DNA of 64,000 nt from Cenococcum geophilum (Eukaryota). The DNA lies in contig CP158635.1 of NCBI GenBank assembly GCA_050273025.1, forward strand, positions 7,502,001 to 7,566,000, written 5' to 3'. The notes under the pieces are model-generated. The model saw only the letters and a list, made by a program, of their open reading frames with translations, made no database searches and was not told the DNA's origin. Of this stretch, positions 1 through 62,859 are shown in pieces. The position numbers and the translations under genes were made by a program. The stretch's first letter is position 1; every line of letters starts with the position of its first letter.

Positions 1-369
1 GGGGAAAAGATAACGTAACGCTGTGTTTTTATTTCCACCCATTTTGCTATAGAAAAAGACTATTAATAATATCTATTAAGATAGTTTCGGAAGTTTATCT
101 ACTAAGTACCAGAAATAACTAATATCGCTAATTATAAGGCTATTAGAGCCGGCAATCTATAGCTACGAGATATAATTATAGAGAGATATACTTATTATAG
201 ATAAAGAGAAAACTAGAATATTTAATATATATATAGTAGGGATAGTAGTTTTGGGTAAAAATAGAAACTACTTATAGTAACAGCATCCTTAATAGGGCCT
301 CTTACCCTCTAAAGAAAACCCCAACAGGCTATAGATAATTTAGATAATAATTACTATAATTTCTATAAT

Positions 370-622
370 GGACAAGGATATTACTATAGTTTTACTAAAG
401 TCCGTCTAGAAAATCTAGCCGTTAAAGGGCTAGAAGTTTGCCCTACTTAAACCGTAAATAACAACTATATATAGTATCTTATCGATATATTTTATATAGA
501 GGGCTATAATAATCTTAATTTAAAGAACCGGGTAAAAGCCTTAATTTATAATAAAGATATTAATAATATCTTATAGGCGTTAGAGATAACAATAGAAGAA
601 TTTATGCAGTATATTAATATAC
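370..622 (+). pseudogene. N-terminal part of RIP-degraded DUF3723-like gene (split by Copia)
   Basis: Manual translation FTKVRLENL...YLIDIFYIEGYNNLNLKNRVKALI resembles the DUF3723-family N-terminus (AKVxL...RLxxIFxxEGCxxLDPxNxVxALI) after reversing RIP changes. Confidence 0.55.
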
Positions 623-3600
623 TGTTGGTTATATAAGGTAATATTACGTAGCTACGGTTCGTAGATAGTATAATAATTGTTATTATATATATTCATCTTG
701 CTTAAGGAAGGGCGAGGAGCTTAGGGCTCCTTGCTACGCTAATACCGCGGCGATATATAACGGCAACTTGCCTCGCATGACGGCAACTTACCTATATTCC
801 CAACACTAGCAACTCTTCTTTTATGGTTGCCATCTATATATATATACCTCTCGACAAGCGTAATAAATATTAATCCTTTTTACTTACCATTGCCATTATA
901 ATATAAGTCTCGCTGTCCTAAAATTTGCCTCTTAGTATATAGTGCTTTTTTACTTAGGAGTCGCAGGTAGATATCTTGTTAGGAGGGCCGCTAAGGCGCT
1001 AGTAGTAAGCGAGCTAATAGCGATTTTCTATCCCGGGGATAGAAAATCCTAATTAGCTAATTTAAGTTAGGGTTTGCAGAATATTATACTCCTACTCCCT
1101 TTTAACCTAACCTTTAACTTATATATATAGAGTATTTATATTAATAAACGTCTCTAGTGCCTTATTTAGGATCGCCTTCGTTATTACATCTACTAGGTTA
1201 TCTTAGCCGTTAATCTATTAAATCTTAAGGAGTTCTTAACGCTTATAGGATTGCTAAAGTGCTATAATATCAATTATAAGGCGCTTCTCCTTTATAGTAC
1301 TAAGCTTAACTAAATACTTATAGAGGGATTATAAGTTGGTATATACAATTATAGGGATAATAAGAAGTTTAAGTCGATCTATAATTATTTTTAGGGTAGT
1401 TCTAATTACAATTGCTATATTAACTCCGCTAACTATTTTATATATCTTTAACACTAGAACGCTTTAAGTAATATACTTATTCTTAGTTAAGCTCTAATAG
1501 ATAAGGTTACCGTAGATTATAAAGTTATTCTCTCTAGTAAATTCGTTTATAATAATAATCTTATATCTTAACTAAGAGCTAAAATCTTTATTATTTATAA
1601 ACGATCTATTAACAAATATAAAGAGCTTAGCGGTGGGAAGATTAATAGGCACGTAGAGTAATCCCTAATTAAGGTGGTTTATTTACTAGAAAAGACGCTT
1701 ATTTAGGGTAAGGATATTATCCTTAGTTAGTTCCTAGTGTTAAGCCGCAATAAAGAGATTAAATAAAGCCTTAGGTTAATAAATAGAAGTAATATAAGCT
1801 TCGCAAGCACGTTGCTCTACATATCCTTGCTTTAGAGAATTAACGTTAATAATATTAATCTTCTTACCTTAACCCTTCTAGCGTAAAGCAATGGAATCCT
1901 TATTTAGGGAGAGAATATATTTATTAAAGAGTAATAGTATTATTAAATTAAGCTTTTCTTTTAGCTTTGCTATAAGATTTGCCTTTACTAGCTTATCTTC
2001 TTTAAGAGCTAAGAATTGGTTATCTCCTAAGATAATTATATTATTAGTTTATATGCCAATAATTCTAAATAGAGTTTCTATAGTTATAATAAGGAAGTAG
2101 GGATTAAATATAGATGTAGTTATTAAAAGCTTCTCTTTATAGTGCTTGCTATAGGTAGTCTACTAATAAGTTCCTGCCTCTGCGATTCTGTATAATGGCT
2201 TAAGCATAACTATAATTATATCTTTAGGATATTAGTAGCGAATTTGCTCTGGAAGGTATACTAATATTAAGCGCTAAAGGTACATCTCTAATTAAGTATA
2301 GGCCTAGGTAATATCTTATAAATAAACTGCTATTTTATTCTTTATTAAGGAGGGAGCTAATATAATAATAACTTGTTAACTAGCTTGTTAAATTATAAAA
2401 AATTGCGTAAGAATTATCTCCTTACTATTGTTGTTATAACCTTAAATAATAAGCCTTAATTTCTTAAATAGGGCATTAGTAGCCTTACCCTTAATTTTAT
2501 TAACTATCCTTAACTTAAAAATACGAACTTTATTAAACTTAGTAGGGTTATACTTCTTAAATTTAAAAACTCTTCTTATAATAAGACCGTCGATCTCCTA
2601 CTTATTAAATGCTTAAAAAGGAGCTCCTAAGGTTATAATATAACCTTCCTTTTAAAGCTGTTTTGCGAGCTTAAAGTTAGCCTTCTCTTTAGCTATTATA
2701 AAAGCCATTAATAACTTAACTCTATTCTTAATGGCGGCAATAAATTATTCTTTAAAATTAATAAGATATTAACGATTTTGTAATCCCTTTGGGTAACCTT
2801 TACCGCGTTATAGTTATAGCGTATCTACTATAATTATATTAGAATTATAGTCGCCTTCTAAAGTACATTAATTATAGTTCTCCTTTAGGGCACCTTTTAG
2901 GGTATCCTATAAAGGCTTAGAATTATTATCTTTATAGTAAGGCTTAATAATAGTTAAATAGAATTAAGTAGGTCTATAAGGCATTTAAATAGTATAAGTT
3001 TAACTATTAATTATAATAAGTTGGTATAGGCCTAACTATCCTCCCTTTTTACGCTATATATATACTTTAGACTAGAGTAGTAGATTAAGTATAGTTAAGG
3101 TATTTAGGCCATTTCTTATTCCTAATATGTTATTAACCTAGCGTATAGTATAAAGATGTTATACCTTCTTTATTGCCTTATAAATAGCCTTAGCTTATTA
3201 TATAATAGAGGGAAATAGTAAAAAATAATTAGTTATTTAAAGGTAGGCGCTAAAGACTAGTAACATAGGTATAAGTCTATTTAGGCCAGCGGAATTATTA
3301 ATAGCTTTAATAGCTATTTATAAGGTAAGTTCTTTACTAGCATCCTTTAGTTCTAAAGAGATAATCTTATATACGCGGCGTAATAGCGCGTAATATTACT
3401 CTACTTTTTTAATACTATTATATGCCTTAACGGGGACTTCCTTAACCTTAATTGCTATTACCTTTATTTATTATTAGAACTCTATAGATAAAAAGTTCTT
3501 TCCTATATTATAGATAATTTAATTAAGGGGTCCTAAATAGATATTAATCTAGTATAACTAAAGGGTATCCTATACGTTTCTAGCTAATATATCTTTTAAA

Positions 3601-5304
3601 AAATGCGCGGCTTAAAAGGAGGTTAAGAAGTTAATAACTTAAAGTACTAATTTGCCGCTAAAATATATAACATTAATAATAATATAGAAGTTAAAGTTAT
3701 AGTTATTCTTAAGGGTGAACTTAAATCGGCCAGGGGACTTCTAGTTTATTTAGTAGTAATAATAATACTTTATAAGATGCTTAATTACCTTAACCTTAAC
3801 TTTATAGCCTACTTACTAAAAAACCTTAAGCAATTAATAAATAGATAGGTGGCTAAAATAATAGTGTAGTTGGCGTAATTCTAACTTAATTAAGTAGCTT
3901 TAAGTAATACTCTTTTCTAGTTAATAAAGGAGTAACTAGGGGTAACCCTATTTACGCATAATAGGTACCTAATTATTTTTCTAAATAAGTATATTCTTAA
4001 GGTTATTAAGCCTAACGCCTAATTTATTTATATTTTTAATGTAAAATAGAAACGGAGTGTTTGTAGGAATAATATAGAAAGTAATATATCCTAAGGGGGT
4101 TTAGACCCTAATTATGCCGAAAAAGATTATAGTACCTTTACTAAAGCAAATTGTATATTAGCCTACTGTTAATTAATTAATCTAAATAGAGCTATTAAGC
4201 TGCTAAAGAGCTTAAACTTAAGGTTCTCCTACTATAGATACTTTTACGGCTTCTATATCCAGTATAATACTATAAAAGACGTACGCTAAGTATCTATTAT
4301 TAAAGGAAAACGTAAAACTCTCCTTTAGCTTATTAAAGATATTTAATTTTGTAATAAAATGGAGCGTAGATTAATTATTAAGAATAGCAACGGTTTATAT
4401 GCCATCTACCTTACTATACTTAGTAAAGTATTAGTTAGGGGAGTAGTCTTTAATTTCTATATTTATAAGGAGCTGTTTAACCTTATTAACCTTACCCTTA
4501 AGATCTTCTACGCCTTTATATTAAACTAGGAAGCTTTAGAAGTAGGCTATAGTAACCTTATAATTTTTAATATTTCTTATACTTTAACGGAACTTATTAT
4601 ATACCTCTTTTCGCTTATTAAGGGAGTGTTTAGTTAACTAGTAATTTAGCTTTTTATAAATATAGTACTTCGTCTAGCAATTATTTTAAAATAAACCTCT
4701 ATAAGGACCTCTATAATTACCTTATAGTTAATATTAATTATACCCTCTTCCGTATTCCCTACTACGGCCACTATATATTTAATTAGTTTAGTTATAATTA
4801 TATTAGTTAGGAATACTTAGTTAGGTAAGGTTTTTAGTATAGAACTATTAAGATTTTTATATTTATATTATAGTACCTACAGTAGAGCGTAGCTTAGTAT
4901 ATACTCCTTTAAACGTATCTATAGGTTTATATAGCGCTAAGTTGCACTTAGGAACGCTATAGCATGTTAAGATAACCTAGTCCCTTAGGCTGTTCTTATT
5001 TTAGTAAGTTTTAGTAAGTCCACGTTAGATTTTCTAAAGTTTATTAAAGAAGAGTTAAAGGTACTCTAAATAAGTCTTTATTGGGTTAGAAGCAATAACT
5101 CTTTAAAATATAGTTTCTTGCTATTTAGATATATAAAGTTAGTAATTCTTATTAGTTTTAAAGTAGGCTTTAATAAGCTAAAGTATTATATTAAAGCTAT
5201 AGTTTTTACCTGTAATATAGTTGTAATGGAATATTACTACCCGTCTCTTTAATATAATAGAGAAAGCGTAGTAGTACTAGTGGCATTAAATTTTAACCTT
5301 ATTA

Positions 5305-6250
5305 GTAGTAGATTTAATTTACCGTCCGACCCGGTCCCCCTAATGGGTCCACGCAGACTAATTCCTATAGGAAAAGCTCATATTACACTGAGAAAACCCA
5401 TTTTTTGGGTGAATAAAAAACCTCTAAGGGAAACGTGAGAGGTAATACTTCCAGATAGCATCCGTACTACATTAACGGGAGGAGAAAAACACCATCAGGT
5501 TGCTGCTTTGAGACTCCCCTTGCGCGAAAGTATCTAAAATGCCTATCTTGCCCTTATCTACCATTTAAACCATTTTTGCCACGTCTATATATTGCCTGTA
5601 TAAAGTTGTGTGCCTATCCCTAGCTCCTTTTCTAAGTCTTCTGTAAATATCTCCTGATAATAATAACGCTTGCGCTCCGCCCGGGCCTGCATACTAAGGT
5701 CTCTTATCCATTCCTTTATTAAAAGGTTTCTATAATGAGGTGTATATAACTTAGTATCGCTTTTGCCCTAGGTCCTAACCCTAGGCCCTTATACCTATTT
5801 GTGAGGTATAGGAGGACGCTCTAGTATTTAATAGGGGTGACTAGTCCCTATAACTAGATACCCAGATTACCAGGTAATATTAAAATAGGGGGCTTCTGCT
5901 ACGCTTAGGGCGCGGATTGTTTGCGTATGTATGTGGTTGCTGTATAGTGTATATAGTATTTATAGGAGGGAGGGGGTACGCCGGAGGGATAATTGCTTGT
6001 TAATTTGAATGACCGAACGTATATAATAGACGTAGTAGCTATATTTAAACTTTTTGCTAGGGCTCACCCCCTAGTGAAAAAATTTCACACCACCACCACC
6101 ACGTTGCTGTGTAGGCGCTGCGCAGCCGTATATACGTCTCTGCGTTTGCTCTAGTAGTCTATTGACACGATTTAAATGGAATATCAATAGTAGCTGCCAG
6201 GTTCCCGGGCTCCACCGCGTGGAGGTGCAGAGGCTGATTTCATCGAGCCC
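5305..6250 (-). mobile_element. 946-bp non-autonomous non-LTR (SINE-like) element with 5' HDV-like ribozyme, inserted in Copia copy 1
   Basis: 12-bp TSD TTAACCTTATTA at 5293-5304 and 6251-6262. The site is empty in Copia copy 2 (~49755-49770). Short (CTA)n tail and LINE-like 3' stem-loop at 5305-5360. Confidence 0.9.
6136..6250 (-). ncRNA. HDV-like self-cleaving ribozyme (predicted)
   Basis: Minus strand reads: P1 GGGCUC/GAGCCC, P2 CUCUGC/GCAGAG, P3 ACC/GGU, L3 UCCACGC, GG for P1.1, long P4 (CUGGCAG..CUAUUGAUA / UGUCAAUAG..CUACUAG), J4/2 GCAAAC. G1 at 6250 abuts the TSD. Confidence 0.82.
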
Positions 6251-7514
6251 TTAACCTTATTATAACAGTTATAAAAGACCTATAGTTTTACTCTAAGTAT
6301 ATTATATAATTCTCCTCTAAACTCCTTCTCTTTATCCAAATATACCTTTATTAGATTTATAACTTCTTATAGTAGAGGGTTACTAGTTAGCTAAAGTAGA
6401 GGAGCTAGAGGTAGCGGAGGTAGAAAAAGAGTACCTTTAGGTAAAAGAGCACCTCTAGGTAGAAGAGTAGCGTTCTAGGGGTTTTATTCCAAATTAAAGT
6501 TACCTTTTAAAAAATATAGGTTAGTTTTAGGTTTCTATAGTTAATATATAATCTTAGCTTCCGTCTATACTAGTTCTTCTATACTAGTAATAACAGCCTA
6601 AATATTACTAGTAATTAGGTTACCGTTCTTAGTAATATATACCCCGTTCCTATAGAGGAAGTCTTAAAAATCCTAAATAATATTAACATTACTAAGTGCC
6701 TAGGTGTTAGCGGTCTATCCTATAAAATCCTCCCTAAAATATTCCTACAGCTATAAATCGGCGTAGTGTTTACTTTAGTAGAATATAATACGGTGTAGAA
6801 AAAACCTATTAACTTATTTTACGGTATGAGTTATTATATTAAAGGTAAATTCGTCCTAATTTTTATTAATAAGTTTCGCGTATAAAGCTACCCCTAGTAG
6901 TAAGAAGTCTTCCCAGTCGTTTAAAGTAGGCATAGCTATATTTTTAGAGGGAGGGAAGTGTTATTAGTATAGGGATTGTCGTTTAGTACGCGTTTGTAAT
7001 ATGTATTTATTATTTAGTATATATTTATAACATGTATTTGCGATTATAGGGCTTAAAACTAGTTCTAGCCTTAAATCGCGAAGACTTATAAAGTATATTA
7101 TTCTGCGTAATAAACGCAAGAATCTATAATCTGGGAAAGGCTTAGGACCAGTTCTGGCCTTTAGATCCTTAGATTTATAGAAGAGTTCTATTTAAGATTT
7201 AGGACCAGTTTTAACCTTAAAAGATAGCTTCCTCTAGTATAAGTAGCACTAGTATAGTAGCTTGTCTCTTCTTGGTAGAATACCTAGCTGTTCTATAGTA
7301 TAATAGTAAAGTTAACTACTAATTAGTGTTGGTTATATAAGGTAATATTACATAGCTACGGTTTGTAGAGAGTATAATGATTGTTATTATATATATTCTT
7401 CTTGCTTAAGGAAGAGTAAGGAGCTTAGGGCTCCTTGCTACGCTAGTGCCGCGGTAACACATAATGGCAACTTACCTCGCGTGACGGCAACTTGCCTATA
7501 TTCCTAACATATAC

Positions 7515-11596: not shown

Positions 11597-11902
11597 TATA
11601 GAAAAGAAATAATAATAATAATTCATTGCTTAACGTCCGATTTGGATCCCTATTAGGCCTATGCGGACTACTCCTTATTTACATATAGGGAGAAAACTCT
11701 ATTTAAGAAAAATAAGAAAACCCCGTAATCCATCTCCCCGCCTTTTAGGACTCGCCTACTTAACGCCTATAAGTCGCCTATAGTGCTCTACTACCTTACT
11801 ATTTAACCTTTTTAGGAACCACTACTGCCGTAACAAGCCTATGGACGCGCTAGTATTATAAACTATTACTCTACTACTATAGAGTTACTAGGGGGCACCT
11901 AC

Positions 11903-17882: not shown

Positions 17883-20880
17883 CCTACTACTCGCCCCCTT
17901 GCCTTCTATTACCATTTCCCTTATAACCCAGAACTAATTTAGCACATTTTAACTAATAAGCCACTAGGTGACCGCCTTAAGGCCTTTTTATATTAAGAGC
18001 AGTATATTATAGTTCTCTATACTAGCTACTAAGAGCATTATTTCTCAATTAGTGCGTAGGGGGCATAGTAGTATTACGTGTTTTAGTGTCTATCTTAGCT
18101 AGCCATATTCGCATCTTAGGCTACCTACTAGGACACCCACCCAGTAAAGCCAATCTTTTAGTCCTATTATTCCTGTTCTTAAGAGTGTTACTATTATATT
18201 TTCTGCCTTTATTAGGCCTTCTCGGAGCCCTTAGGTATTTACCCCCTATAGCGTTAACTATACTATAGCTTAGGTTTATCTTGCCTAAGTTAGCCTCTAT
18301 ACCTTTAACTCCTATTCGCCTCTCCAGCGTTAGTCTAACCAGTATTGTATTGCGATAGATAGTTTCCCGGCGTTCTTATATATTCTACTTTAGCTCCTTT
18401 CTCTATCTTGCTGTTATCTTTACTAACCTCTTATGCGTCTCCTTTCCTCCTCTATATAGGCCTAGGCCCTAAAGCGGCACTATTCTTCTTCTACTTTCTT
18501 TACCTATTTCTTTAATATCTCTTCCCTACTTTAGGGTTGTTGGTTTATTCTCCTACAGGGCACCCTAGGGTCCCTCTATAGTTTACTTAGGCGTATCTTA
18601 ATATACTTTATAACATTAGAGTTACGTTTATTTTGCGTCCTTTATATTATAGCGGCTTTAATATATAACTATAGGGGGGGAATATTAGATTCCTTCTTAA
18701 GCAGTACTGTAGCCGTTCGCTTATACCCACCTATAATACTCTAAAGGCAAGCTGTCTGGACCTTTTGAAGTAGTTTAAGGAGTAATTTAGGGGGGCCCTT
18801 CTTAGTTTCTCTAATGGCCTAAATACTAGATCTATATATTATGGTTAGCCGGACAACTACTATATATAGTAGGCGTAACCTCTAGAAGCATAAACCCTAT
18901 ATAAAGTTAACAATCCTAGATAAAGCGATAAACTATACTTAGCCTTTGCGGGCCGCTTATACCATATATACGCTTCACTAGAGCTTACTATCTACCCATA
19001 CTCCTAATACCCTTAGGCCCTAAACTAGTTAACCCCTAAAGCCTTAGATGCGAATTATATACTAAAGATCTACAGATTAGTTGCGTTTTCTTATAAAATA
19101 GATTAGCTGGTATTTCTCTAGTAAGAATTAGACTCTATAACGTTTTGCCTATTCTATATAAGTGTTATAGGCTTTCTCTAGTGTTCTGCAATTCTTTACG
19201 GCTATTAGCCCATATATAATTAGGTTTGTATTGTTAACAAAGCCTATCCCCTAGGTCGCCCCTTCCTTAAAGAAGTCAAGTAGGTTGCTTATAAAGAAAA
19301 GGAAAAGTATAGGCGAAAGGGGTAATCCTTATAGTATTTCTATTATAACTGCAATAGGGGGGCTCTGGTATCTACTAAAGACCAATAATATTTCTTTCTG
19401 GCCTATAAACCCTTAGATAAATTATATAATCTATTCTAGAAAGCCCTTTACCCTAAGGATATATAGAAGACGCTTGTGGGGTATATTATTATAGGCACCA
19501 CTAATATCTAGGCTAAGTATTAATACTATAAAGTCCTTTCGCATCGCCTATGCAGATTTAATAGTGGCAGCGAGTAGCATAAGTGCTAATAGTGTTAAGC
19601 GGTTCTTTCTTACCCCTATTTAGCTTTATAGTAGTAGGGCGTATTCCTCTACCGTATCTACTATACGTTCCGCTATTACCCTTTCTAAGATCTTACTAAG
19701 GGTATTTTCTAAGGCAATAGGGCGGTAGCTTCCTGGGATTAAGTAATCTGCTTTACCTTTTTTTCGTAGGATAACCGTCATTATAGATCTTCTAAGTCGC
19801 GGGTAGTAGCCTATAGCAAAGTATGCTCTAGCTACATCTGTAAGCTAAGGTGCTATAAGTAGCCCACAGGTTTTTAGGGCCTTATTTAGAATCCTATCTA
19901 GTCCTAGTACTATATTATTTAAAAGGCGGCTAATAGTTCTAGCTATTTCCTCTATTATTATATCGCTGTTAACCCGCAGGCAAGTTACCGGTGTTTCGCC
20001 TGTAATATTACTAAGGTCTACTAAAGCCGGTTAGGGGAAGAACCTTTCTATAAGGATCTTTACCTTCTTATCGTTGTCGTTTATAGCCTATAATTCTCCT
20101 ACTCTTTATAGGGGTGGTAGGTGTAGGTCTTCTGCTAAGCGCCCTACCTTTTTCTTTACCCATTTCGCTATAGCCTAAAGGCCCTTATTATAGGGGAGGC
20201 TCGGGTTAAAAGTATGCTTATTTATAAACCGTCTCTAGTTATTCCTTACTTCTTTTTTTAGGGTATTCTTTAACCGGTTTCTTATATCTTTATATTATCT
20301 CTTATCTTTAGGGTCGTGGCTACTTATATATTTCCTTCTTACTTATTATTAGCTAGTAACCAGAACTGCGTATTATATAGACTATACGTGTCGCGTATAG
20401 GGGCCTAGTTTTAAAATCGGGCAGTGCTCTTCCAGCCCATTTTTAATCGCTACCTAGATCCTTTCTAGTCTTCGGTCGATTTCCTTAGGGGTGGCTAATA
20501 AGCCTCGCTCGTTTGGTATTAGGTGGATTTCTTCTAGGTTTTAGAGTTATTATTTAACTATATTAAGGAAACTATCTGTCTTAAGCTTCCTTATTGCGTA
20601 TCTTTTTCTATTTAGTTACGCTTTAGTATCTAGGTCTAGCTATATCTAAATAGGGATATAGTCTAGGGTAAGTGCCTATTCTTCTTTAGGGTTGCACCTT
20701 TTAAGTCTCTAGTATAGGCCTTCGTCTATAAATATAAGGTCAATTATACTTCTAGCAGTACCTCATTACCATATAATTGCTCCTAGGAAAGTAGCTAGCT
20801 TAAAGCCCCAGATATCTATAGCTTTTAGTAGGCACTCTAACTATTAATCTGCAGCAATATAGATACCCTTCCACCACGGG

Positions 20881-23800
20881 TATAACGGAACCTTGTAGCA
20901 AGAACTACGATAGGCTCGTCAATAGGCTAGGTGTGTAGGAAATGCAAGTATAAAAGTCAACAACGTAATAACAACTGGTGGAGTGGTTGCCCAACAGATT
21001 AACTCTAATTATATTCTGAGAATTACTATAAGGAAGGAACTATCTAGGTAGGGACTAAGGGTCCTTAAATACACAACCGTACTCCTATAAAATCCTTCTT
21101 ATACGTAATATACGTATACTCTATCTACTCTGTTATAAATCCTATAGATTATATAGATTACACAAATTATATTATATAACCTTAGTTACTATTCCTTATT
21201 ATATAATTCTATCGGCTCCATCCTAAACTATACCTAAATTAACCAACTAGCTTCTTCCGTCTCTTTTTTAAGTAGTCGTAATATTATACTTAAAGCGTCC
21301 GTAACACCATCTCCCTCCTCTTTATCTTCGTCCTTAAAGATTCAAAATATCTCTAAGTCGTTTACTAGAGGTATAATATCCGTTTAATTAATTTAGTTAA
21401 TATTATTGCTTATTATACCTAAAGCAATTTCTTCTTCCTTAACTGCTCGTCGTGCTCGCACTATCGCTGCAATATTATCTCTTAGTAAGATTATACCGTC
21501 TCCGTATTCTCACTACTTAAAAGAGGGGTTAGTTTATATTACGTTAGCAAACCTATCTTCGCGATAACCGTCCTCTTATTTAGAGTATACTAAAGTAAAT
21601 ATTTATTTGTCCTATAACGTTCGCTCTACTTCTAATGCTAAATATGCGCGACCTATTACCCTTAATAGTCGTCTAGTTCCCTAATTAATTTATCTTAGGG
21701 TCTTATATTTAATCTGCTGCTATATAGCTAGATAATAAACTATCTATTGCTCTTGCTAAATTGCGCTAATCTTAGGATGCTAAATAGGAAGCTGCCGATG
21801 CTCAGCAACGGGCTCTTAAGTCTTATTTAGCGGCGTCTACTTAGTTAATCCGTCTTAAGAAGGTACATAAGAAGGTTTATTTTAAGGAGTAGAAACTTAT
21901 AAAACAAGGTCTATAGGAACTGGGTAATAAAAGAACGGATTTTCTTTTAATAGAGAAGGAAACAGATCTAAGTAGTTTAGCAACTACTCTTTTTAGGTCC
22001 CCCTTAGGTAACTTATTCTTTAGCGATCCTTCTTTATTAATACTGTCTAACCTAATTTCTTCTAATACTCCTATACCTTTTCTATAGCGTTCTTTAGATT
22101 CTCTAATAGTTCCTAGGTAGTCTTAGTATAGCCTATCCACTTAACCTTATACTATATTTTGTCGTTAATATCCTTATAATTAACAATCTTTAAAACTTAC
22201 TATTCGTCTTCTTCTTATCCTCTATATATGTCTACTTTATAAACCGGTGGCTTAATATTCCTATGTGCTAGCTCTAGTATTACAATATACTATATAGGGT
22301 AGATCTTTATTTTGGCTGGTAGGTTTAACTTAAACATAACTAGTAAAATCCTCTATATAACTTTAAAAGGTCCTAGTCTAACATGGTCTAATTTCTTACT
22401 TAGTCGTTAACTCTTAAAATTTTTATATAGTAGCTATACTTTATCTCCCTCCTTAAGATCTGGTCCCTTAGATCTCTTAGCGTTATAGTACTTTTTTATT
22501 CTCTCTTATACTTTCTTTACTAATTCCATAAAGTCTATATAAAGATTTATTAAATCCTTTATTCTCTTTTTAGCTATACTACTTATTTTCTTTACTTATT
22601 ATAGTAACAACAATATTCTTAGCTTATATCCGTAATTTGCCTTAAATAGTAATATACCTATTCCTTCTTAAGGTGTTACATTATATGCAAACTATATAAC
22701 TAGTAATAGTAATACCTAATTATTCTATGCATAATTAATATAATGCCTTAGATACTACTCTAGCGTCTAATTTAATCTTTCCATTTAGCTATCTATCTGT
22801 AAATAATATATAGTGGAAGTTACTACTTAAACTCCTTACTCTGCTAAGAACACTTCCTAGAATACTACTATAAATCTTAGATCCCTATCCGATATAATCT
22901 TACTTAGTGCTCTATATCTTATAAACACTTCTTTAACATAAATTCTAGCGACATCTTCCGCTAAGATTTCTTCTGTATATGCTATAAAGTATCCCCACTT
23001 TATAAGCTTATCTACTATTACTAAGATCGCGTTATAATCTTATCTAGTAATAGGATCTCTTAATTTTGGCAACTTAATAATAAAGTCCTATAATATAACC
23101 TCCTATAGTCTCTCTAGTATTTTAACAGGTTATAGCCCTCCATATAGCTTATACCTTATTAGTTTATTTCTTTAGCAATCTAGATATTCCTTTATAACTT
23201 TTCTAGCTATCCTTTAGATTCCGTTAATAATATATTCCTCCTAGAGTCTTAATACTAAGCTTATAATTCCATTATATCCTTAAGTTAGTCCCTTATAGAA
23301 GTCTTCCACGAACTATTCTGCTATACTCTTTAGGATATACTTTACTTCTTGATTTTCGTATATATCCGCCTATAAATCTTCTAGCTATGCTTTTAGAATT
23401 CTTTATGCCTAAAAGCTTTCTAGTATCTTATAGACTTTCTCTAGTTTATCTTAAGTTACTATAATTTTCGGATAATTATACCTAATTAATCCGTCTATAT
23501 CTTTTCGTAATAAAGCCCCTAATAGCTTTTCCTTATTTTATAGTTTAGCTTTACGGCTTAGAATATCTGCCCGTATATTATCTATACCTTTAGTATACTA
23601 AATCTTAAAATAGTATTCCGTAAGCATCTCTACCTATCTAACCTATCTTTAGTTAAGTTCCTTTATTATTAGGAATCCTATTAGGTTTTTATAATCTGTC
23701 TTAACTATAAATGGTTTCTCTATGCCTTATAAGAATGCTCTTTATTTCTTTAATGCTATAACTATACCTAATAACTCCTTATTATAGATGTTATAGTTTA

Positions 23801-48100: not shown

Positions 48101-51095
48101 TTAAAGTACTAGCTTACCACTAAGATATATAACATTAACAATAATATAGAAGTTAAAGTTATAGTTATCTTTAAGGGTAAACTTAAATCGGCTAGGGGAC
48201 TTCTAGTTTATTTAGTAGTAATAGTAATACTTTATAAGATACTTAATTACCTTAACCTTAACTTTATAGCCTACTTGCTAAAGAACCGTAAGTAATTAAT
48301 AAACGGATAGGTAGCTAAAATAATAGTATAGTTAGCGTAACTCTAACTTAGTTAAGTAGCTTTAAGTAATACTCTTTTCTAGTTAATAAAGGAGCAACTA
48401 GGGGTAACCCTACTTGCGTATAACGGGCACCCAATTATCTCCTTAGATAAGTATATTCTTAAGGTTATTAAGCTTAACGCCTAATTTATCTATATCTCTA
48501 ATACAAAATAAAAATGGGGTATTTGTGGGAATAATGTAAAAAGTAATATACCCTAAGGGGGTTTAAACCCTAATTATGCTAAAAGAGATTATAGTACCTT
48601 TACTAAAGCAAATTGTATATTAGCCGCCGTTAATTAGTTAATCTAAATAGAGCTATTAAGCTACTAAAGAGCTTAAACTTAAGGTTCTCCTACTATAGAT
48701 ACTCCTACGGCTTCTATATTTAGTATAATACTATAAAAGACGTTTGCCAAGTATTTGTTATTAAAGGAAAACGCAAAACTCTCCTTTAGCTCGTTAAAGA
48801 TATCTAACTTCGTAATAGAATGGAGCGTAAATTAGTTATTAAGAACAGCAACAGTTTATATACTATTTACCTTACTATACTTAGTAAAGTATTAGTTAGG
48901 AGAGTAGTTCTTAATTTTTATATCTATAAGGAGCTATTTAGTCTTATTAACCTTACCCTTAAGATCTTCTACGCCTTTATATTAAACTAGGAAGCTTTAA
49001 AAGTAGGCCATAGTAACCTTATAATTTTTAACGTTTTTTATACTCTAACAGAACTTATTATATGCCTCCTTTTATTTATTAAGGGAGTGTCTATTTAACT
49101 AGTAATTTAGCTTCTTATAAATATAGTACTTTATCTAGCAATTACTTTAAAATAAACCTCTATAAGGACCTCTATAATTACCTTATAGTTAATATTAATT
49201 ATACCCTCTTCTATATTCCCTACTACGGCTACTATATATTTAATTAGTCTAGTTATAATTATGTTAGTTAGGAATACTTAGTTAGGTAGGGTTTTTGGTA
49301 TAGAACTATTAAGATTCTTATATTTATATCGCAGTACCTATAGCAAAGTGTAGCTTAGCATATACTCCTTTAAACGTATCCATAGGTTTATATAGCGCTA
49401 AGTTATACTTAAAAACGCTATAGCATGCTAAGATAACCTAGTCCCTTAGGCTGTTCTTATTTTAGTAAGTTTTAGTAAGGCCATATTAGATTTTCTAGAG
49501 TTTATTAAAGAGTAGTTAAAGGCACTCTAAATAAGTTTTTATTGAGTTAAAAGCAATAACTCTTTAGAATATAGTCTCCCGCTATTTAGACATATAAAGT
49601 TAGCAATTTTTATTAGTCTTAAAGTGGGCTCTAGTAAACTAAAGCATTATATTAAAGTTATAGTTTTTACCCGTAATATAGTTATAATAGAATATTACCG
49701 CCCGTCCCTTTAACATAATAGAGAAAGCGTAATAGTACTAATAGCGTTAAATTCTAACCTTATTGCAACAGTTATAAAAGACCTATAGTTTTACTCCGAG
49801 TATATTATATAGTTCTCCTTTAAACTTCTTCTTTTTGTCTAAATATACCTTTATTAAATTTATAACTTCTTATAATAAAGGCTTACCGGTTAGCTAGAGT
49901 AGAGGAGGTAAAAGCAAAGCAACTCTAAGTAGGAGAGCACCTCTAGGTAGGAGAGTAGCTTTAGGTAAAAGGTTAGCGTTCTAGGGGTTTTAATATAAAT
50001 TAAAGTTACCTTCCAAAGAATATAGGTTGTTTTTAGGTTTCCGTAGTTAATATATAATCTTAGCTTCCGTCTATATTAGTTCTTTTATACTAATAATAAC
50101 GGCCTAAATATTGCTAGCAATTAGGTTACCGTTCTTAGTAATATATACCCTATTCCTACGGAGAAAGTCTTAAAAATCCTAAATAATATTAATGTTACTA
50201 AGTGCCTAGGTATCGGCAGTCTATCCTATAAAATCCTCCCTAAAATACTCCTATAGTTATAAATCGGCGTAATATCTATTTCGGTAGAATATAATATAGT
50301 ATAAAAGAAAGCCGTTAACTTATTTTGTGGTATAAGTTGTTATATTAAAGGCGAATTCATCCTAATCTTTATTAATAAGTTTTATGTGCTTAGCTACCCC
50401 TAGTAGTAAGGAGTCTTTCTAGTTATTTAAAGTAGGCATAGCCATATTTTCGGAGGGAGGGAAGTATTATTAGTATAGGGATTGTCGTTTAGTACGCGTT
50501 TATAATATGTATTTATCGTTTAGTACGCGTTTATAACGTATATTTGCGGTTATAGGGCTTAGGACTAGTTCTAGCCTTAAAACGCGAAGACTTATAAAGT
50601 GTGTTATTCTATATAATAGACGCAAGAATCTATAATCTTAAAAAGGCCTAGGACTAGTTCTAGCCTTTAGATCCTTAGATTTGTAGAAGAGTTTTATTTA
50701 AGGTTTAGGACTAGTTCTAGCCTTAAAAGACAGCCTCCTCTAGCACAAGTAGCACTAGTATAGTAGCTTATCTTTTCTTAGTGGAATACCTAGCTGCTCT
50801 ATAGTATAACAGTGAAGTTAACTACTAATTAGTGTTGGTCTTATAAGGTGATATCACGTAGCTACGGTTCGTAGATAGTATAATAATAATTATTATTATA
50901 TTCTTAATAAGGGAGGGCGAGGAGCTTAAGGCTCCTCGCTATGCTAGTGCCGCGGCGGCACGTAACGGCAACTTGCCGTACGTAACGGCAACTTGCTATA
51001 TATGACGGCAATATGCCTTATATGGTAACCACTTGCCTTTATTCCCAACATCTACTAAGGGAGTAATAATAATCTGGTATTTGTATTACCTTAAT

Positions 51096-58941: not shown

Positions 58942-61900
58942 TTATTATTATTATTTATTCTATTTATTGCCCGATTTAGTCCCTTTTCAAGTCTATACAG
59001 GCTACTACCTATCTATGTAGGAAAAGAATCCCTATAAGGGGAAAAACCTAGGTATTTCCTTTTAGCTAGTCTTACGCGCTCCGCCTTCGCCTAGCTAGTG
59101 TGTCCTTATGTCTTATAGTCTACCTTACGTACCATACTTCCTGGGTATATCGGAAGATCTAGGGGGAGGGAGTAGTGGGAGGGTCTAGCGATTTGCTAGT
59201 GTGCCGCCTATGGCTAGGCGGGGGGTAACCAGTCGCTGAGGGGCTGGAAAGGGGTGTATCCTATAGTGTCCTCCTGTTGGATCTCATGTGCTGTTTGGAA
59301 CTGCTAGAGGATTCCTTATCCTATAAGCCATTTTGCTACTACGTGTAGGCCCCTCTTTATAGAGAGCATCTGGGTAATATTATTTATGCCTGCGCTAGTA
59401 AGTAGCTAGTCCCTTACTGAGCGGTAGCTGCAGAATAGCAGTATATGGCGTACTGACTGAGTGGGCCATCCGCATGTATATTGAGGTGTAGTATTTGGAA
59501 CATAGATGCTTGCGAGCCATGCGTTTAGGCCTAGGACCTCTGTCCGTAGTAGGAAGGCGGCTATAGATTCTGCCTTTATTAGTCCTTTATATAGGGGGAG
59601 GGTTGGTGTCGATTATGGGGTGTTCCATATAGCTATGTCTTGTGTTTTCGCTGCCTCCTTCCATTATCGCTTCTATTTAAGGTCTGCCCATCTTGCAATT
59701 AGTGTAGTAGATCTCCATCTATGCTGGTAACCTCCTGTCCTCTGTTACCGTTGTGGCGCTCTACTGGTGTGGCGGCGGGTCTTAGCCTAGTGGGCTAGTA
59801 GTTCCTATATTTCCTTTTCTCTCTCTACCGCTTGTAGGTAGAGAGCTTCCTAGCTAGTATGCTTGGGCGCGGCTCTCCTTTGAGGGGCCCTTACTCCTTA
59901 TATGAGTCTCGTTCCTCGTATACGTTTTAGTATATAGCGTATTTTTTCTTCTACTGGGTGGCCTTGTACTGTAGCTGCTCTCTATATAGTAGTTATGTCG
60001 ATATATATATCTAGTAGTAAAACTGCCGCTTCGCGTTCTAGTGCGGCGCGCGGTATTCTCTTATAGGCTCCTATAGTTCTATGTAGGCATTGGTTTTAGA
60101 GCTTAGCTAGTGACGCTAGGGAGCTTTTTACTAGCACCTTGCCGCCTAGTCCTAGGCCCCATACCTAGGAGCCGTATAGCATTGTTGGCCTTACAACTGC
60201 TGTGTATAGTAGACGTGTAAGTCTAAAAGAGGGTCCCCATGTTAAGGTAGTAATTCGTAATGCTGCCAAGAGTGCAGCTGCTCCCCTGTGGGTCGCCTAT
60301 GTAATATACTCGTTCCAGTTTAGTCTGGAGTCTACCCAGACCCCTAGGATCTTAAGGGTAGCTTCTAGTTTTACTACACAGCCCTAGATATTTACTGTTG
60401 AGGCTAGGTCGTTGCCTGCCCTTCTTTTCCTTATAAAGTGGATAAGCTAGTATTTATCTGGTGCAAATTTGGCACCGTGTTGTTTTGCCTATACGATGTA
60501 CCTATTGTGCGCCTAGTTTAGCCTAATGCAGTTTTCTACTACTATATTTCCCCATAAGATTAGGTTCGTGTCGTTGACGAATCCTAGGGCTATTGTATCC
60601 TAGCTATTATTAAATGTCTCTAGTAGTTTGGATATAAAGAAGAGGAATAGGATTGGTAAGAGGGGTGAACCCTATAGGATACTTATAGGTGTTGGTATTG
60701 ACTCGCTTTCGTATCCCTCAATTATAATTTTCGTGGTACGTCCTGTTAGAAAGGCTTAGACAAACTTAATTATCTAGTTTAGTAGGCCCTTGTTTCTTAG
60801 GATCTATAGGAGTCTCTTATATAATACGTTGTCGAAGGCTCCGCTTAGGTCTAGGCTTAGCATAGATACGGTGCATCCTAGGTGCGCTTACCATACCGCG
60901 TAGCAGGTAGTTATATAGTAGAGTTCGACATACCTGCTTATCCAGGCCTCTACCTCAGTTTTTAAGTAGTTTTCCCTTACTAAGCCTAAGGGCCTGGGGC
61001 TTTCTATAAGCAGTTAGCTGCCACCACCAATAGCATGGGGAATTTCACCAGTTCTCTCGGGTATCTTATAAATACTAGTCTGCCCCCCAGCAGTCTATAT
61101 AAGAGTTCCCTCCTAAAGTTAGTACGCTTTCGCACGGCTTAGAAGCCTTCCATAGCCTCTAGTTTCACGCCTCTCTTTATCATTTCCGCCGGTACGGGCA
61201 TAGGCTACCATTTGCAGGGGTCGCAACTCCTATCTTACGCGCCTACTAACGTAGTCCTATAAGGGCGTCGTGGCTATATCCTGCAATGTAGAAGCCTTAG
61301 GTACCTTCTACGGTCGAGGCCCAGCCAAAAGCCTCTCCCGCCTAAGTAACTCCTGTTTACTCCTTAAGCGTACCTCACCAGCGTACTGCCCTAGCGAGCA
61401 GTCCTATCTATTAGTACACCAACACGCGCATCCGTTCTCTCAAGCCACGTAGTAGTCTCTCCGGCCAGGATGTGATCCTACCTGCCTACCAGGTGCACTA
61501 GGGGTCAGAGCCTAGCTAAGGGGTAAGGTCCCTAGAGCCAGCAGTGGCTACCACACACTACGCCCCACGGGAGGTTTTAATTCCCGTTTCGCGTTACCTA
61601 TAAGAGTCTCCTTATAATAGGCCGACCGTGTCTTATAGAATAGGTTATAGACTAAATCCCGTGCTAGGCGACCTACCCTACCCTATTCTACTAACCAAGC
61701 TTATATCCCCCCTTATTATAAGCTGGCCTGTGTCTCTAACTATTAAGTCCTCGTACAACTGGCCTGTGTTTCCTTAGAGCCTCCCCCATATATATATGTT
61801 AGGTTACGTGCACTACGCCTATTAAGACCCTCCTGTGAGTCACCTGTAGGTCAAACGCCATAAAGCCGTCAAAGCTGGCCTGTGTTTCCGCTACCTAGAG

Positions 61901-62616
61901 CTTTGCCCGTGTTTCCACCTCGTTAAGCCGTCTGGTCGCCGTCACGTCGCTGTTACGTCGCTATCGCGTCTCTGTCGTCTAGGTCGCGCGCACCACGCCT
62001 ATTAAGACCCTCTTCTAAGTCACCTAGGTGTACCGGATACCAAATAGGCCCTCGCAGAGGGGCCTTAATAAGTTCTCTAGGCAGGGCCTTAACAAGTTCT
62101 TCGCGGTGGCCTTAGGGCCTTAACAAGTTTCGTATAAGGTATCTGCGACACATTAACCTTAACAAGTTCTTATAAAAAAGAGGTTCCCTACGCCCTCGCC
62201 GCGTTCCTTTGCGATCTCAGAGCTAGTGCAAGCCCAAGGGTGTCCTGTCGTACGCCTAGGACGCGTCCGCATCCGCTAGCTTGATAAGGCCAGTTTCGGC
62301 CCTAGCTACGAGCTAGGTAGTCGTACGTCGGGTGGTTTTCGTATCCCAGTTTCCCTTGATTGATTGCCTCCCTAGATGGTAGAGCGGAAGCCTCAAGCGG
62401 AGGCAGTGAGGCTCCTGGTGATGTTAGGGGCGATGCTTTGTACGATGCTTTGTACGCGTCGCGAGCTCAACACCACAGAACCGCGACGACAGCGCGCTGC
62501 ACGCGCTGCGACGGCTCTCTTCCATCGCCTCTGCACTTGGCCATCGTAAGGAAGGGTTTTCCTAATAATGTTTCCACCCGCGGCGACGTGGACGCGTGCA
62601 GTAGGGCTTCGCGGGC
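58942..62616 (-). mobile_element. 3.7-kb chimeric non-LTR element: HDV-like ribozyme + ~1.6 kb unknown module + 3' half of a Tad1-like ORF2
   Basis: 14-bp TSD AGGTATATATATTA at 58928-58941 and 62617-62630; (TAA)n tail. RT motifs SLDLSGAFDNV (~60826-60858), GSPLLPILF (~60645-60672), GFVNDTNL (~60560-60585). No EN, ORF1 or YRPI motif seen upstream. Confidence 0.88.
62531..62616 (-). ncRNA. HDV-like self-cleaving ribozyme (predicted)
   Basis: GCCCGCG-AAGCCCUA-CUGCAC-GCG-UCCACGU-CGC-CGCGGGU-GG-AAA-CAUUAUUAGGAA-AACCC-UUCCUUACGAUG-GCCAA-GUGCAG. This gives a 7-bp P1 with G1.U wobble, P2, P3, canonical L3, P1.1, P4 and a J4/2 carrying the catalytic C. Confidence 0.92.
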
Positions 62617-62859
62617 AGGTATATATATTAACTTAGAATATAACTTAAAATGGAACTTATACAACTTAAAAATAAGTATATATTTAATATAATAGTAAAT
62701 ATTACTCTTACTCTAGGTCTATACTTTAGGTTATTAATTAAATATAAAACCAGTTCTCTTTCTATTATTACTCTCGCTAGCAAGTTATAATATTAACCTT
62801 AAATTCTAAGTTAATAGAGATATAGAGAATTTAATTAATATTAAGTTAAAATTTAAGTT

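What the first reader, a model, noticed from the sequence alone, without database searches (positions are those of the whole stretch)
5305..6250. Ribozyme-headed SINE-like element: HDV-like head plus LINE-type tail in 946 bp
Seen: 12-bp TSD, an empty homologous site in Copia copy 2, a 3' (CTA)n tail with stem-loop, and a second HDV-like fold at 6136-6250 whose G1 abuts the TSD. Its stems differ in sequence from the 62531-62616 ribozyme while topology and L3 (UCCACGY) are kept, which amounts to natural covariation. Most stem mismatches (P2, P4) are G>A/C>T, as expected from RIP; P1 has 6 pairs and J4/2 is one base longer than usual. No tRNA-like head, RT or EN is visible. Inference: a short non-autonomous retroelement using a self-cleaving ribozyme instead of a Pol III head, analogous to R2-derived SIDEs, possibly an undescribed fungal class.
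Basis: partly seen in the sequence, partly recalled or inferred. Interest (0 to 1): 0.9.

Follow-up and report, generated by a model that had tools for sequence, protein, structure and literature searches.

The report
Ribozyme-headed short fungal retroposon family
This 946-base insert is one copy of a large family of short, non-coding jumping elements, apparently fungal, that begin with a hepatitis-delta-like self-cleaving RNA fold and end with a tail borrowed from longer elements, a design known in animals and trypanosomes that my literature searches did not find described for fungi.

Summary
The insert at 5305-6250 lies on the minus strand. It is flanked by a 12-bp target-site duplication, and a paralogous copy of the host repeat has the empty site (49754-49765). 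Its first 113 nt (6250-6138) form a complete HDV-like nested double pseudoknot.

It is not single-copy. All 112 usable upstream flanks differ, and homology starts exactly at G1. In 25 of 34 sufficiently long loci a conserved 3' module follows 524-1153 nt downstream. In 18 of 27 testable copies a different duplication of 12 nt or more abuts G1. P4 shows compensatory changes: 96% of cells are paired, against 28-43% in slid controls.

The 3' stem-loop and simple-repeat tail are shared with two LINE-type elements in the window (nhmmer E about 1e-6). No ORF, tRNA-like head, RT or endonuclease is present.

Best reading: a LINE-dependent, non-autonomous retroposon whose 5' end is set by ribozyme self-cleavage. 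This works like NARTc/L1Tc and R2 SIDEs.

Cleavage itself is untested, and no autonomous partner with the same head was found. It is a new member of a known kind.

The parts
5305..6250 (-). Whole 946-nt non-autonomous retroposon copy (subfamily A). The 5' end G1 is at 6250 and the 3' end is at 5305.
   Evidence: Bounded by the TSD. Aligns end to end (1-945/946, 77-93% identity) with 10 of the 40 metagenome loci that hold at least 946 nt downstream of G1. The family-A profile matches 6250-5306 with score 1086.
5293..5304 (.). Target-site duplication, copy next to the element's 3' end (TTAACCTTATTA)
   Evidence: Identical to 6251-6262.
6251..6262 (.). Target-site duplication, copy abutting G1
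49754..49765 (.). Empty (uninserted) homologous target site in the second copy of the host repeat
   Evidence: Flank alignments meet here with a TSD-length overlap. One Logan DNA contig of run X1 also joins 5292 to 6251 (table 5).
6138..6250 (-). HDV-like ribozyme fold: P1 6250-6245 with 6212-6207; P2 6232-6227 with 6143-6138; P3 6226-6224 with 6216-6214; L3 6223-6217; P1.1 6222-6221 with 6206-6205; P4 about 6201-6149; J4/2 with candidate catalytic C at 6148
   Evidence: Descriptor hit. In 82 distinct heads, 96.1% of 2824 cells are paired and 9 pairs change on both sides, against 28-43% paired in slid controls. C103 is at least 90% conserved and G102 is invariant. The only Rfam hit at E<=10 in a 127-nt scan is the HDV-like drz-agam-1, at 11.9 bits and E 4.4, far below gathering.
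6028..6137 (-). Conserved extension of the head, up to about nt 136-223 of the element. It is shared by all subfamilies, and relatives have a G+C-rich palindrome here.
   Evidence: Head alignments in 120 of 120 loci reach nt 50-230 or the end of the contig. Loose-end consensus at 6114-6116.
5312..5441 (-). Conserved 3' module shared by subfamilies A and B
   Evidence: A profile of 30 tails matches here with E 1.1e-36.
5324..5358 (-). 3' terminal stem-loop, shared with LINE 3' ends. Presumed recognition site for the reverse transcriptase.
   Evidence: RNAalifold and RNAfold. In 29 distinct rows, 92.2% of cells are paired and 5 pairs change on both sides (4 of 500 shuffles reach this), against 30-55% paired in slid controls.
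5305..5311 (-). Remnant of the (CTA)n simple-repeat tail (CTACTAC)
   Evidence: Relatives carry (CTA)3-5 or RIP-type CTATTAT.
58948..62616 (-). Related 3.67-kb ribozyme-headed unit with its own TSD, an RT C-terminal half and a (TAA)n tail. Not part of the insert; it shows the same design and the same 3' end.
   Evidence: AATATATATACCT stands both upstream of G1 (62617-62629) and after the tail. RVT_1 hit. Intact LINE proteins align only from about aa 556 on. The tail profile hits 59049-58958 with E 8.9e-7.
62531..62616 (-). Second HDV-like ribozyme, canonical (7-bp P1 with G1.U, J4/2 CCAA)
   Evidence: Descriptor hit. Rfam small-space scan: HDV-F-prausnitzii 25.9 bits, E 0.0018, and HDV_ribozyme 21.1 bits, E 0.18. 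Both span the full model and both are below gathering.
11611..11718 (-). 3' end of a second, APE+RT-coding LINE (body 20882-17883, then 11901-11612), with the same stem-loop and a (TTA)n tail
   Evidence: Tail profile E 5.1e-7. Continuity across the interruption is shown by L001. P0001 aa 142-1105 align at 35% identity. Sequence.

Best explanation
The insert is a copy of a family of non-coding, LINE-dependent (non-autonomous) non-LTR retroposons of about 0.8-1.15 kb. Most likely mechanism:
1. A copy has no recognisable promoter of its own and is transcribed as part of a longer transcript from whatever lies upstream (inferred).
2. The HDV-like ribozyme that forms its first 113 nt cleaves immediately 5' of G1. 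This frees an RNA whose 5' end is exactly the element's first base (inferred from fold and position).
3. The reverse transcriptase of an APE-type LINE binds the 3' stem-loop plus (CTA)n/(TAA)n repeat, which the element shares with LINEs in the same genome (the sharing is shown; the binding is inferred).
4. Target-primed reverse transcription at an A+T-rich site copies the RNA to its very 5' end and leaves a duplication of about 12-14 bp (TSDs and full-length 5' ends are shown).
The copy in the window later took RIP-type G>A/C>T changes.
For: Family:
- All 120 align to the head.
- Logan contigs of two organisms cover the whole insert at many-fold summed depth, with mostly transition differences.

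Mobility:
- All 112 usable upstream flanks are different, out of 120 loci.
- Column identity jumps from at most 0.54 at -1 to 0.95-1.0 at +1..+5.
- 18 of 27 testable copies have a flank match of 12 nt or more abutting G1, each one different.
- The empty site exists.

Short and non-coding:
- 25 of 34 loci with at least 1250 nt downstream have the tail 524-1153 nt from G1.
- No LINE ORF follows the head in those 34 loci, from tblastn with 5 intact LINE proteins of which only the P0001 rows were listed.
- No consistent open frame and no Pfam hit.

Ribozyme: full topology and covariation. Only HDV-class Rfam families appear as weak hits.

LINE dependence:
- The tail profile hits two LINE 3' ends at E 5e-7 and 9e-7.
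- The stem shows compensatory changes between short elements and LINEs.
- LINE relatives encode APE+RT.

Transcription: raw RNA reads of run X21 lie almost only with the first mate on + (for example 812 against 15 at 6105-6169). In most stranded libraries that means RNA of the element's own strand.
Against: - No cleavage has been shown. The RNA run gave no place where many molecules begin at G1 (table 6), and most of its reads come from diverged copies (1897 of 2014 laid only partly).
- Rfam's curated thresholds are not reached.
- The nested MFE of the 113 nt is not unusual, z -1.38.
- This subfamily has a 6-bp P1 with a G.G mismatch and a 5-nt J4/2, either of which could lower activity.
- The core of P1 (3' strand), P3 and P1.1 was fixed by my search pattern, so their invariance carries no information.
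- No autonomous LINE with this head was found. The window's ribozyme-headed 3.67-kb unit lacks APE and the RT N-terminus, and L074 is a mosaic.
- 9 of 27 copies gave no clean TSD.
- 103 of the 120 loci come from three record series, so they may represent few genomes.
Confidence: 0.8

Rival explanations
1. It is a SIDE-type element: a plain internal-deletion derivative of a ribozyme-headed autonomous LINE. On this reading the head, body and tail are all LINE UTR sequence, and it is not an independently assembled SINE-like lineage.
For: The 3' ~90 nt are homologous to LINE 3' ends. The window holds a 3.67-kb ribozyme-headed, TSD-flanked unit that looks like an internally rearranged LINE, so such derivatives do arise here. 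R2 SIDEs set the precedent (PMC3414825, abstract).
Against: Profiles of the whole element (subfamilies A, A2, B) match nothing in the window except the insert and the last ~60-100 nt of the two LINE 3' ends. No LINE coding sequence follows this head in any of the 34 long loci. The two ribozymes in the window share no detectable sequence similarity. The test is incomplete, because no intact full-length LINE DNA could be fetched.
Confidence: 0.2
2. The conserved 5' structure is not a working self-cleaving ribozyme. It would be a structured RNA kept for another role, such as RT or 5'-end binding, an internal promoter or DPE as in Pr77, or translation or stability. The 5' end would then be set by transcription initiation.
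For: No cleavage data and no sharp RNA start. Below Rfam thresholds. P1 is shortened and J4/2 lengthened in this subfamily. Pr77 of L1Tc is both promoter and ribozyme (PMC3383444, abstract).
Against: Every element of the HDV fold is present, with the candidate catalytic C at least 90% conserved. The fold starts at the element's first base in 112 of 112 usable copies. A second, sequence-unrelated HDV-like fold sits at the first base of another TSD-flanked unit. Fungal HDV-type variants cleave in vitro (PMC5640933, passages read).
Confidence: 0.12
3. It is a classical Pol III SINE with a tRNA-, 5S- or 7SL-derived head, and the ribozyme-like fold is incidental.
For: Its size and LINE-type tail resemble long SINEs.
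Against: ARAGORN finds no tRNA-like gene in 5200-6350. Rfam gives no tRNA, 5S or 7SL match at gathering in the window or at E<=10 in 5000-6600. The first 113 nt are fully taken up by the HDV-like fold.
Confidence: 0.02
4. It is a one-off insertion, or a chance fold in a unique sequence.
For: There is only one copy in the 64-kb window. My descriptor gives 0.43 chance hits per shuffled window.
Against: 120 or more related loci with distinct flanks. 20 of the 24 runs listed, from 14 studies, hold the stretch or part of it. Covariation supports the fold.
Confidence: 0.01

Closest known systems
NARTc / L1Tc of Trypanosoma cruzi (Pr77 / L1TcRz; also RIME/ingi, SIDER)
   Same: A short, non-coding, dispersed non-LTR element whose first nucleotides form an HDV-like ribozyme cleaving at +1, mobilised by a LINE and flanked by TSDs (PMC3185411, passages read; PMC4035085 and PMC3383444, abstracts).
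   Different: NARTc shares its first 77 nt almost identically with its LINE and ends in poly(A). Here no LINE with the same head was found, the two ribozymes in the window are unrelated in sequence, the tail is a stem-loop plus (CTA)n/(TAA)n, the body is about 700 nt of unrelated sequence, and the host appears to be a fungus with RIP.
R2 SIDEs (short internally deleted elements) of Drosophila
   Same: Ribozyme head plus the 3' end needed for TPRT, no ORF, and dependence on the parent's protein (PMC3414825, abstract; PMC6765202, passages read).
   Different: SIDEs are site-specific in 28S rDNA, co-transcribed by Pol I, and demonstrably internal deletions of R2. Here the insertions are dispersed (112 different flanks) and the body has no detectable LINE homology.
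Fungal HDV self-cleaving ribozyme variants (Li & Breaker 2017, PMC5640933)
   Same: HDV-class ribozymes in ascomycete genomes with a G-C pair at the cleavage site. That paper reports 230 representatives in 26 species, shown to cleave in vitro, with 'widely variable gene associations', which is what dispersed repeats would give.
   Different: That paper does not link them to mobile elements: the words transpos-, repeat and retrotransposon do not occur in its main text. Its alignments (.sto supplements) could not be read, so I could not test whether this ribozyme belongs to that variant (E-loop in P4, extra nucleotide between P2 and P3).
HDV-like ribozymes at the 5' ends of RTE and baggins LINEs (Ruminski et al. 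2011)
   Same: Promoter-less APE-type LINEs processed from read-through transcripts by a 5' HDV-like ribozyme. The LINE relatives here are single-ORF APE+RT proteins of about 1100-1160 aa.
   Different: Known to me only through the review PMC6765202 (passages read), because the primary paper is not held. Those are autonomous animal elements. The clade of the fungal LINEs here was not determined.
Stringent-type LINE/SINE pairs that share a 3' stem-loop and short-repeat tail (for example eel UnaL2/UnaSINE1; recalled, not from a call)
   Same: The non-autonomous partner carries the LINE's 3' terminal stem-loop followed by a short tandem repeat.
   Different: Those SINEs have Pol III tRNA-derived heads. 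This one has a ribozyme head.

Membership tests
HDV-like self-cleaving ribozyme | Nested double pseudoknot with P1, P1.1, P2, P3 and P4 in the canonical order | tested here: met
   Descriptor hit at 6250-6138. On 82 heads 96.1% of cells are paired, against 28-43% in slid controls. P3, P1.1 and the 3' strand of P1 were fixed by the search pattern and so say nothing.
HDV-like self-cleaving ribozyme | Helices supported by compensatory changes | tested here: met
   9 of 35 pairs change on both sides in 80 cells (0 of 500 shuffles reach this), mostly in P4, for example A-U 44 / G-C 30 at one pair. The P1, P2 and P3 sequences differ between the two ribozymes of the window while the topology is kept.
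HDV-like self-cleaving ribozyme | Conserved catalytic cytosine at the start of J4/2, and two L3 cytosines pairing with GG (P1.1) | tested here: met
   C103 is at least 90% conserved and G102 is invariant. L3 is TCCACGC with CC/GG. J4/2 is CAAAC, one base longer than in the second ribozyme (CCAA).
HDV-like self-cleaving ribozyme | Match to a curated HDV-class covariance model at its gathering score | tested here: not met
   0 matches at gathering in the window. In small-space scans drz-agam-1 scores 11.9 bits (gathering 37) for this ribozyme, and HDV-F-prausnitzii scores 25.9 bits (gathering 44) for the second one.
HDV-like self-cleaving ribozyme | Site-specific self-cleavage 5' of the first P1 nucleotide | not testable with these tools
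   Only positional evidence: homology in 112 of 112 usable copies begins at G1. The RNA reads show no sharp start.
Non-autonomous non-LTR retroposon (LINE-dependent) | Many copies at different sites with TSDs of variable sequence | tested here: met
   112 distinct upstream flanks. 18 of 27 copies have a flank match of 12 nt or more abutting G1. Empty site.
Non-autonomous non-LTR retroposon (LINE-dependent) | No coding capacity for RT or endonuclease | tested here: met
   No Pfam family in six frames at E<=1. Open frames differ in frame and extent between copies.
Non-autonomous non-LTR retroposon (LINE-dependent) | 3' end shared with a LINE of the same genome | tested here: met
   The tail profile hits LINE 3' ends at 59049-58958 (E 8.9e-7) and 11718-11626 (E 5.1e-7). 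The stem-loop is conserved with compensatory changes.
Classical SINE | Head derived from tRNA, 5S or 7SL RNA with an internal Pol III promoter | tested here: not met
   ARAGORN finds 0 genes. No Rfam match of that kind. It should therefore be called SINE-like, not a SINE.
SIDE (short internally deleted element) | Whole sequence collinear with the 5' and 3' parts of a full-length autonomous element | tested here: inconclusive
   Only the last ~90 nt match LINE sequence in the window. No intact ribozyme-headed LINE DNA was available to compare.
Fungal HDV ribozyme variant of Li & Breaker 2017 | E-loop replacing part of P4, and an extra nucleotide (usually C) between P2 and P3 | not testable with these tools
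   Their alignments cannot be read here. C24 could be that extra nucleotide or could pair with G108. G1-C44 fits their cleavage-site pair.

The most novel reading that the evidence does not exclude
On this reading the element represents a widespread, so far unrecognised class of fungal retroposons. They would be promoter-less, Pol II read-through, ribozyme-processed SINE-like elements whose heads evolve independently of their LINE partners. The hundreds of 'orphan' HDV-type ribozymes reported in ascomycete genomes with 'widely variable gene associations' would be the 5' ends of such elements and of their LINEs. That would give fungal HDV ribozymes their biological function.
Probability: 0.35. 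Interest if true: 0.72.

Novelty: new member of a known kind. Interest (0 to 1): 0.6.

Why it matters
- It gives a concrete biological setting, 5'-end definition of retroposon RNA, for HDV-type ribozymes in fungi. These were shown to be active but were left without a function (PMC5640933).
- It adds to fungal repeats a non-Pol III, SINE-like design that repeat annotators would miss or label 'unknown'. This matters most in RIP-degraded, repeat-rich genomes.
- The family offers many natural variants, with covarying P4, 6- or 7-bp P1 and 4- or 5-nt J4/2, for testing what the HDV fold tolerates.
- It offers a matched set of short elements and LINEs that share a 3' stem-loop, for studying template choice by a fungal LINE reverse transcriptase.
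- The kind of element is already known from trypanosomatids and insects, so this extends an existing idea and does not add a new one.

Tried and rejected
- Whole genome: none is held for this window.
- Extending metagenome loci, for example L074, to reach a full LINE: the records are not held. No second metagenome scan was allowed.
- Earlier findings of this scan: three look-ups returned nothing.
- blastn of the insert against the window: no second copy.
- nhmmer with the head profile: it finds only the insert and not the second ribozyme, so the two heads are not alignable by sequence.
- Pfam on the sequence downstream of the L074 head and on the LINE-like L075 flank: 0 families.
- Pfam on six frames of the host repeat, 1-5304: 0 families, so the 'Copia' label is unverified.
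- L074 as 'the autonomous LINE with the same head': rejected. Its LINE-like stretch matches only the non-LINE-protein part (nt 842-1548) of the 3.67-kb unit, ends after about 740 nt, and is followed by another repeat.
- The 3.67-kb unit at 62616-58948 as autonomous partner: rejected. Sixty-six hits from the 85 LINE proteins searched all begin at about aa 411-600 and align from element nt ~1694 on, with no APE or RT N-terminus.
- Coding potential of the short elements: stop-free stretches of 100-196 codons occur, but in different frames and places from copy to copy.
- Nested MFE folding: z -1.38. This is uninformative for a pseudoknot.
- RNA 5' end at G1: the one raw-read RNA run listed no such place.
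- Primary papers Ruminski 2011, Webb & Luptak 2011 and Webb 2009: not held.
- Ribozyme sequences of Li & Breaker: absent from the readable supplements.
- Literature searches for a fungal ribozyme-headed retroposon found none. The library lacks most subscription journals, and Repbase-type catalogues were not searchable.
Full report
**What is at the site**

The insert 5305-6250 is bounded by a perfect 12-bp direct repeat, TTAACCTTATTA, at 5293-5304 and 6251-6262. The surrounding repeat occurs a second time in the window. The left flank aligns to 47767-49764 and the right flank to 49755-51001, and the two alignments overlap by the length of the duplication. The second copy therefore has one uninterrupted target at 49754-49765. 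One DNA contig of run X1 also joins 5292 directly to 6251.

The element reads 5' to 3' on the minus strand. G1 at 6250 follows the duplication without any extra base, and the 3' end is ...AAATCTACTAC at 5305. I could not confirm that the host repeat is a Copia element, because Pfam found nothing in six frames of 1-5304.

**The 5' fold**

Positions 1-113 of the element (6250-6138) can be written as a complete HDV-type nested double pseudoknot:
- P1: GGGCTC/GAGCCC.
- J1/2: 12 nt.
- P2: CTCTGC/GCAGAG.
- P3: ACC/GGT, closing L3 TCCACGC.
- P1.1: two L3 cytosines pair with the GG that follows P1.
- P4: long.
- J4/2: CAAAC, whose first C is the candidate catalytic residue.

A descriptor I wrote for this topology finds exactly two places in both strands of the window: this one and 62616-62531. 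Shuffled windows give 0.43 hits on average, so the descriptor alone is weak evidence.

Rfam gives nothing at its curated thresholds. When only the ribozyme is scanned, the sole hit among 4227 families is the HDV-like drz-agam-1 (11.9 bits, E 4.4). For the second ribozyme the hits are HDV-F-prausnitzii (25.9 bits, E 0.0018), HDV_ribozyme (21.1 bits, E 0.18) and drz-agam-2-2. All are sub-threshold, and the search space was chosen after the fact. Still, only HDV-class models appear.

**It is a family**

The window holds a single copy and no genome is held.
- Public runs: 20 of the 24 runs listed, from 14 studies, hold the stretch or part of it.
- Logan DNA contigs of two organisms: they cover the whole insert at a summed depth of about 5,000-40,000 in X1, against 80,000-350,000 for the host repeat. 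The differences are overwhelmingly transitions.
103 of them come from three record series and the rest from about a dozen others.
- All 120 loci align to the head of the insert.
- Ten of the 40 loci with at least 946 nt downstream align over the whole 946 nt at 77-93% identity, and an eleventh has an internal deletion.
- Other loci share the head (nt 1 to about 136-223) and the 3' region (about 630-945, or 697-836) around a different middle.
- A profile of this second subfamily (B) still aligns along the whole insert, E 4.5e-121.
- Of 34 loci with at least 1250 nt downstream of G1, 25 carry the conserved tail on the same strand 524-1153 nt from G1. Nine do not, because of nested or interrupted copies or for unknown reasons.

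**It moved by target-primed reverse transcription, always full length**

- Of the 120 loci, 112 could be used. Six lacked a recognisable P1 5' strand and two had too little upstream sequence.
- All 112 upstream 30-mers are different.
- The share of the commonest base is at most 0.54 at position -1 and 0.95-1.0 at +1 to +5. GGG starts 104 of the 112.
- Of 30 loci with head and tail, one lacks the 5' end and two lack a flank. Of the 27 tested, 18 have a match of 12 nt or more (at most 2 RIP-type transitions) between the sequence abutting G1 and the sequence after the tail, different in every copy. Nine gave no clean match.
- Positions -14/-13 show a TA preference (0.65/0.78). This fits a fairly fixed duplication of about 12-14 bp that starts where the target can pair with the (CTA)n or (TAA)n tail.

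**Covariation**

On 82 distinct heads the proposed structure has 96.1% of 2824 cells paired, against 28-43% when partners are slid by 1-3 columns. Nine of 35 pairs change on both sides, in 80 cells, and none of 500 shuffles reaches either figure.

The support sits mainly in P4, for example one pair with A-U 44 / G-C 30 and another with G-C 44 / A-U 25. P3, P1.1 and the 3' strand of P1 were fixed by my search pattern and say nothing.

The family consensus has a canonical 7-bp P1 (GGGCTCC/GGAGCCC). The subfamily of the window copy has G at position 7, hence 6 bp plus a G.G mismatch.

The second ribozyme in the window keeps the topology with different P1, P2 and P3 sequences, a G1.U pair and a 4-nt J4/2. 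The head profile does not detect it.

**State of this copy**

Against the majority of ten full-length relatives the insert differs at 86 positions. Sixty-six of these are G>A or C>T, and 38 of those lie in CpA/TpG contexts. Within the ribozyme only A16, A69, A78, A79 and T98 differ. They convert G.U to A-U or G-C to G.U, or lie in loops, so the fold is intact.

**What it lacks**

- No tRNA-like gene.
- No Rfam small-RNA head.
- No Pfam family in six frames.
- No open frame that is kept between copies.

**The 3' end is LINE-like**

A profile of 30 tails hits three places in the window:
- the insert (E 1e-36);
- 59049-58958 (E 8.9e-7);
- 11718-11626 (E 5.1e-7).

The second hit is the 3' end of the 3.67-kb unit headed by the other ribozyme. 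That unit has its own 13-bp duplication, AATATATATACCT.

The third hit is the 3' end of a LINE whose body is 20882-17883 and continues, after an interruption of about 6 kb, at 11901-11612. Locus L001 shows the uninterrupted form. An intact LINE protein aligns to this LINE from aa 142 to 1105.

All of these ends share a stem-loop. In 29 distinct rows 92.2% of cells are paired, and 5 pairs change on both sides, including U-A to C-G changes between short elements and LINEs. Slid controls give 30-55%. The stem-loop is followed by about 12 nt and a short tandem repeat: (CTA)n in subfamily A, (TAA)n in subfamily B and the 3.67-kb unit, and (TTA)n in the second LINE.

Relatives of the LINE RT are single-ORF proteins of about 1100-1160 aa with APE and RT domains.

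**What I could not establish**

No autonomous LINE with the same head was found.
- None of the 34 long loci shows LINE coding sequence downstream of the head, from tblastn with 5 intact LINE proteins of which only the P0001 rows were listed.
- L074, which at first looked like one, is a mosaic.
- The 3.67-kb unit itself lacks the APE and the N-terminal part of the RT. All 66 hits from the 85 LINE proteins searched begin at element nt ~1694.
- Metagenome records could not be extended.

Whole-element profiles find no LINE homology outside the last ~60-100 nt. This speaks against a simple internal-deletion origin but does not exclude one.

**Expression**

In the one raw-read RNA run almost all reads lie with the first mate on the + strand. 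In most stranded libraries this means RNA of the element's own strand. Most of those reads come from diverged copies, and no sharp start at G1 was listed. Three contigs of a metatranscriptome run on past 6247 into unrelated sequence (table 7). That is compatible with read-through precursors or with DNA in the library.

**Comparison with what is known**

- HDV-like ribozymes at the first base of LINEs and of their non-autonomous partners are established for L1Tc/NARTc (PMC3185411, passages read) and R2/SIDEs (PMC3414825, abstract).
- In fungi, 230 HDV-type variants from 26 species were reported and shown to cleave, with 'widely variable gene associations'. The words transpos-, repeat and retrotransposon do not occur in that paper's main text (PMC5640933). 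Its alignments were unreadable here.
- Six literature searches found no fungal ribozyme-headed retroposon. The library lacks most subscription journals and repeat catalogues.

**Verdict**

The element is a new, apparently fungal member of a known kind. Self-cleavage and the identity of the autonomous partner remain the open points.

Noticed in passing
window 58948-62616 (-): A 3.67-kb unit with its own 13-bp TSD (AATATATATACCT) starts with the second HDV-like ribozyme. It carries about 1.7 kb with no similarity to LINE proteins, then an RT from about motif 3 to the C-terminus, and a (TAA)n tail. It looks like a non-autonomous, internally rearranged LINE derivative that transposed as one piece.
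   Followed up: partly
window 17883-20882 and 11612-11901 (-): An APE+RT LINE (35% identical to P0001 over aa 142-1105) is split by an insertion of about 6 kb. Locus L001 shows the uninterrupted junction. Its 3' end carries the family stem-loop and a (TTA)n tail. No ribozyme was found at its 5' side.
   Followed up: partly
positions -14/-13 upstream of G1 in 112 loci; window 6263-6264: There is a TA preference (0.65/0.78) about 13-14 nt upstream of the element's first base. This suggests a fixed nick spacing and pairing of the target with the repeat tail during priming.
   Followed up: no
window 32934-34156 (-); L075:1-974: A fragment matching aa 4-51 of the LINE protein lies at 33077-32934. 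It is preceded by about 1 kb that in L075 lies directly next to sequence homologous to nt 980-1704 of the 3.67-kb unit. This may be a long LINE 5' UTR and hence a clue to the full-length parent.
   Followed up: no
window 61800-61845 and 61980-62025: A 46-nt direct repeat (85% identical) lies inside the 5' part of the 3.67-kb unit.
   Followed up: no
L072 (second head about 243 nt after the first copy's end); L049 (inverted copy): Short elements sit close together or nested in some contigs. L075, L091, L106 and L120 show copies that abut or lie close beside LINE sequence.
   Followed up: no
window 6028-6137 (-) and relatives: Directly after the ribozyme, relatives carry a G+C-rich palindrome (loose-end consensus at 6114-6116) that RIP has degraded in the window copy. 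Its role is unknown; it could be a promoter element, a protein-binding site or a folding aid.
   Followed up: no
It is so RIP-degraded that Pfam finds no domain. Its summed depth in Logan contigs is about 10-fold that of the insert.
   Followed up: partly
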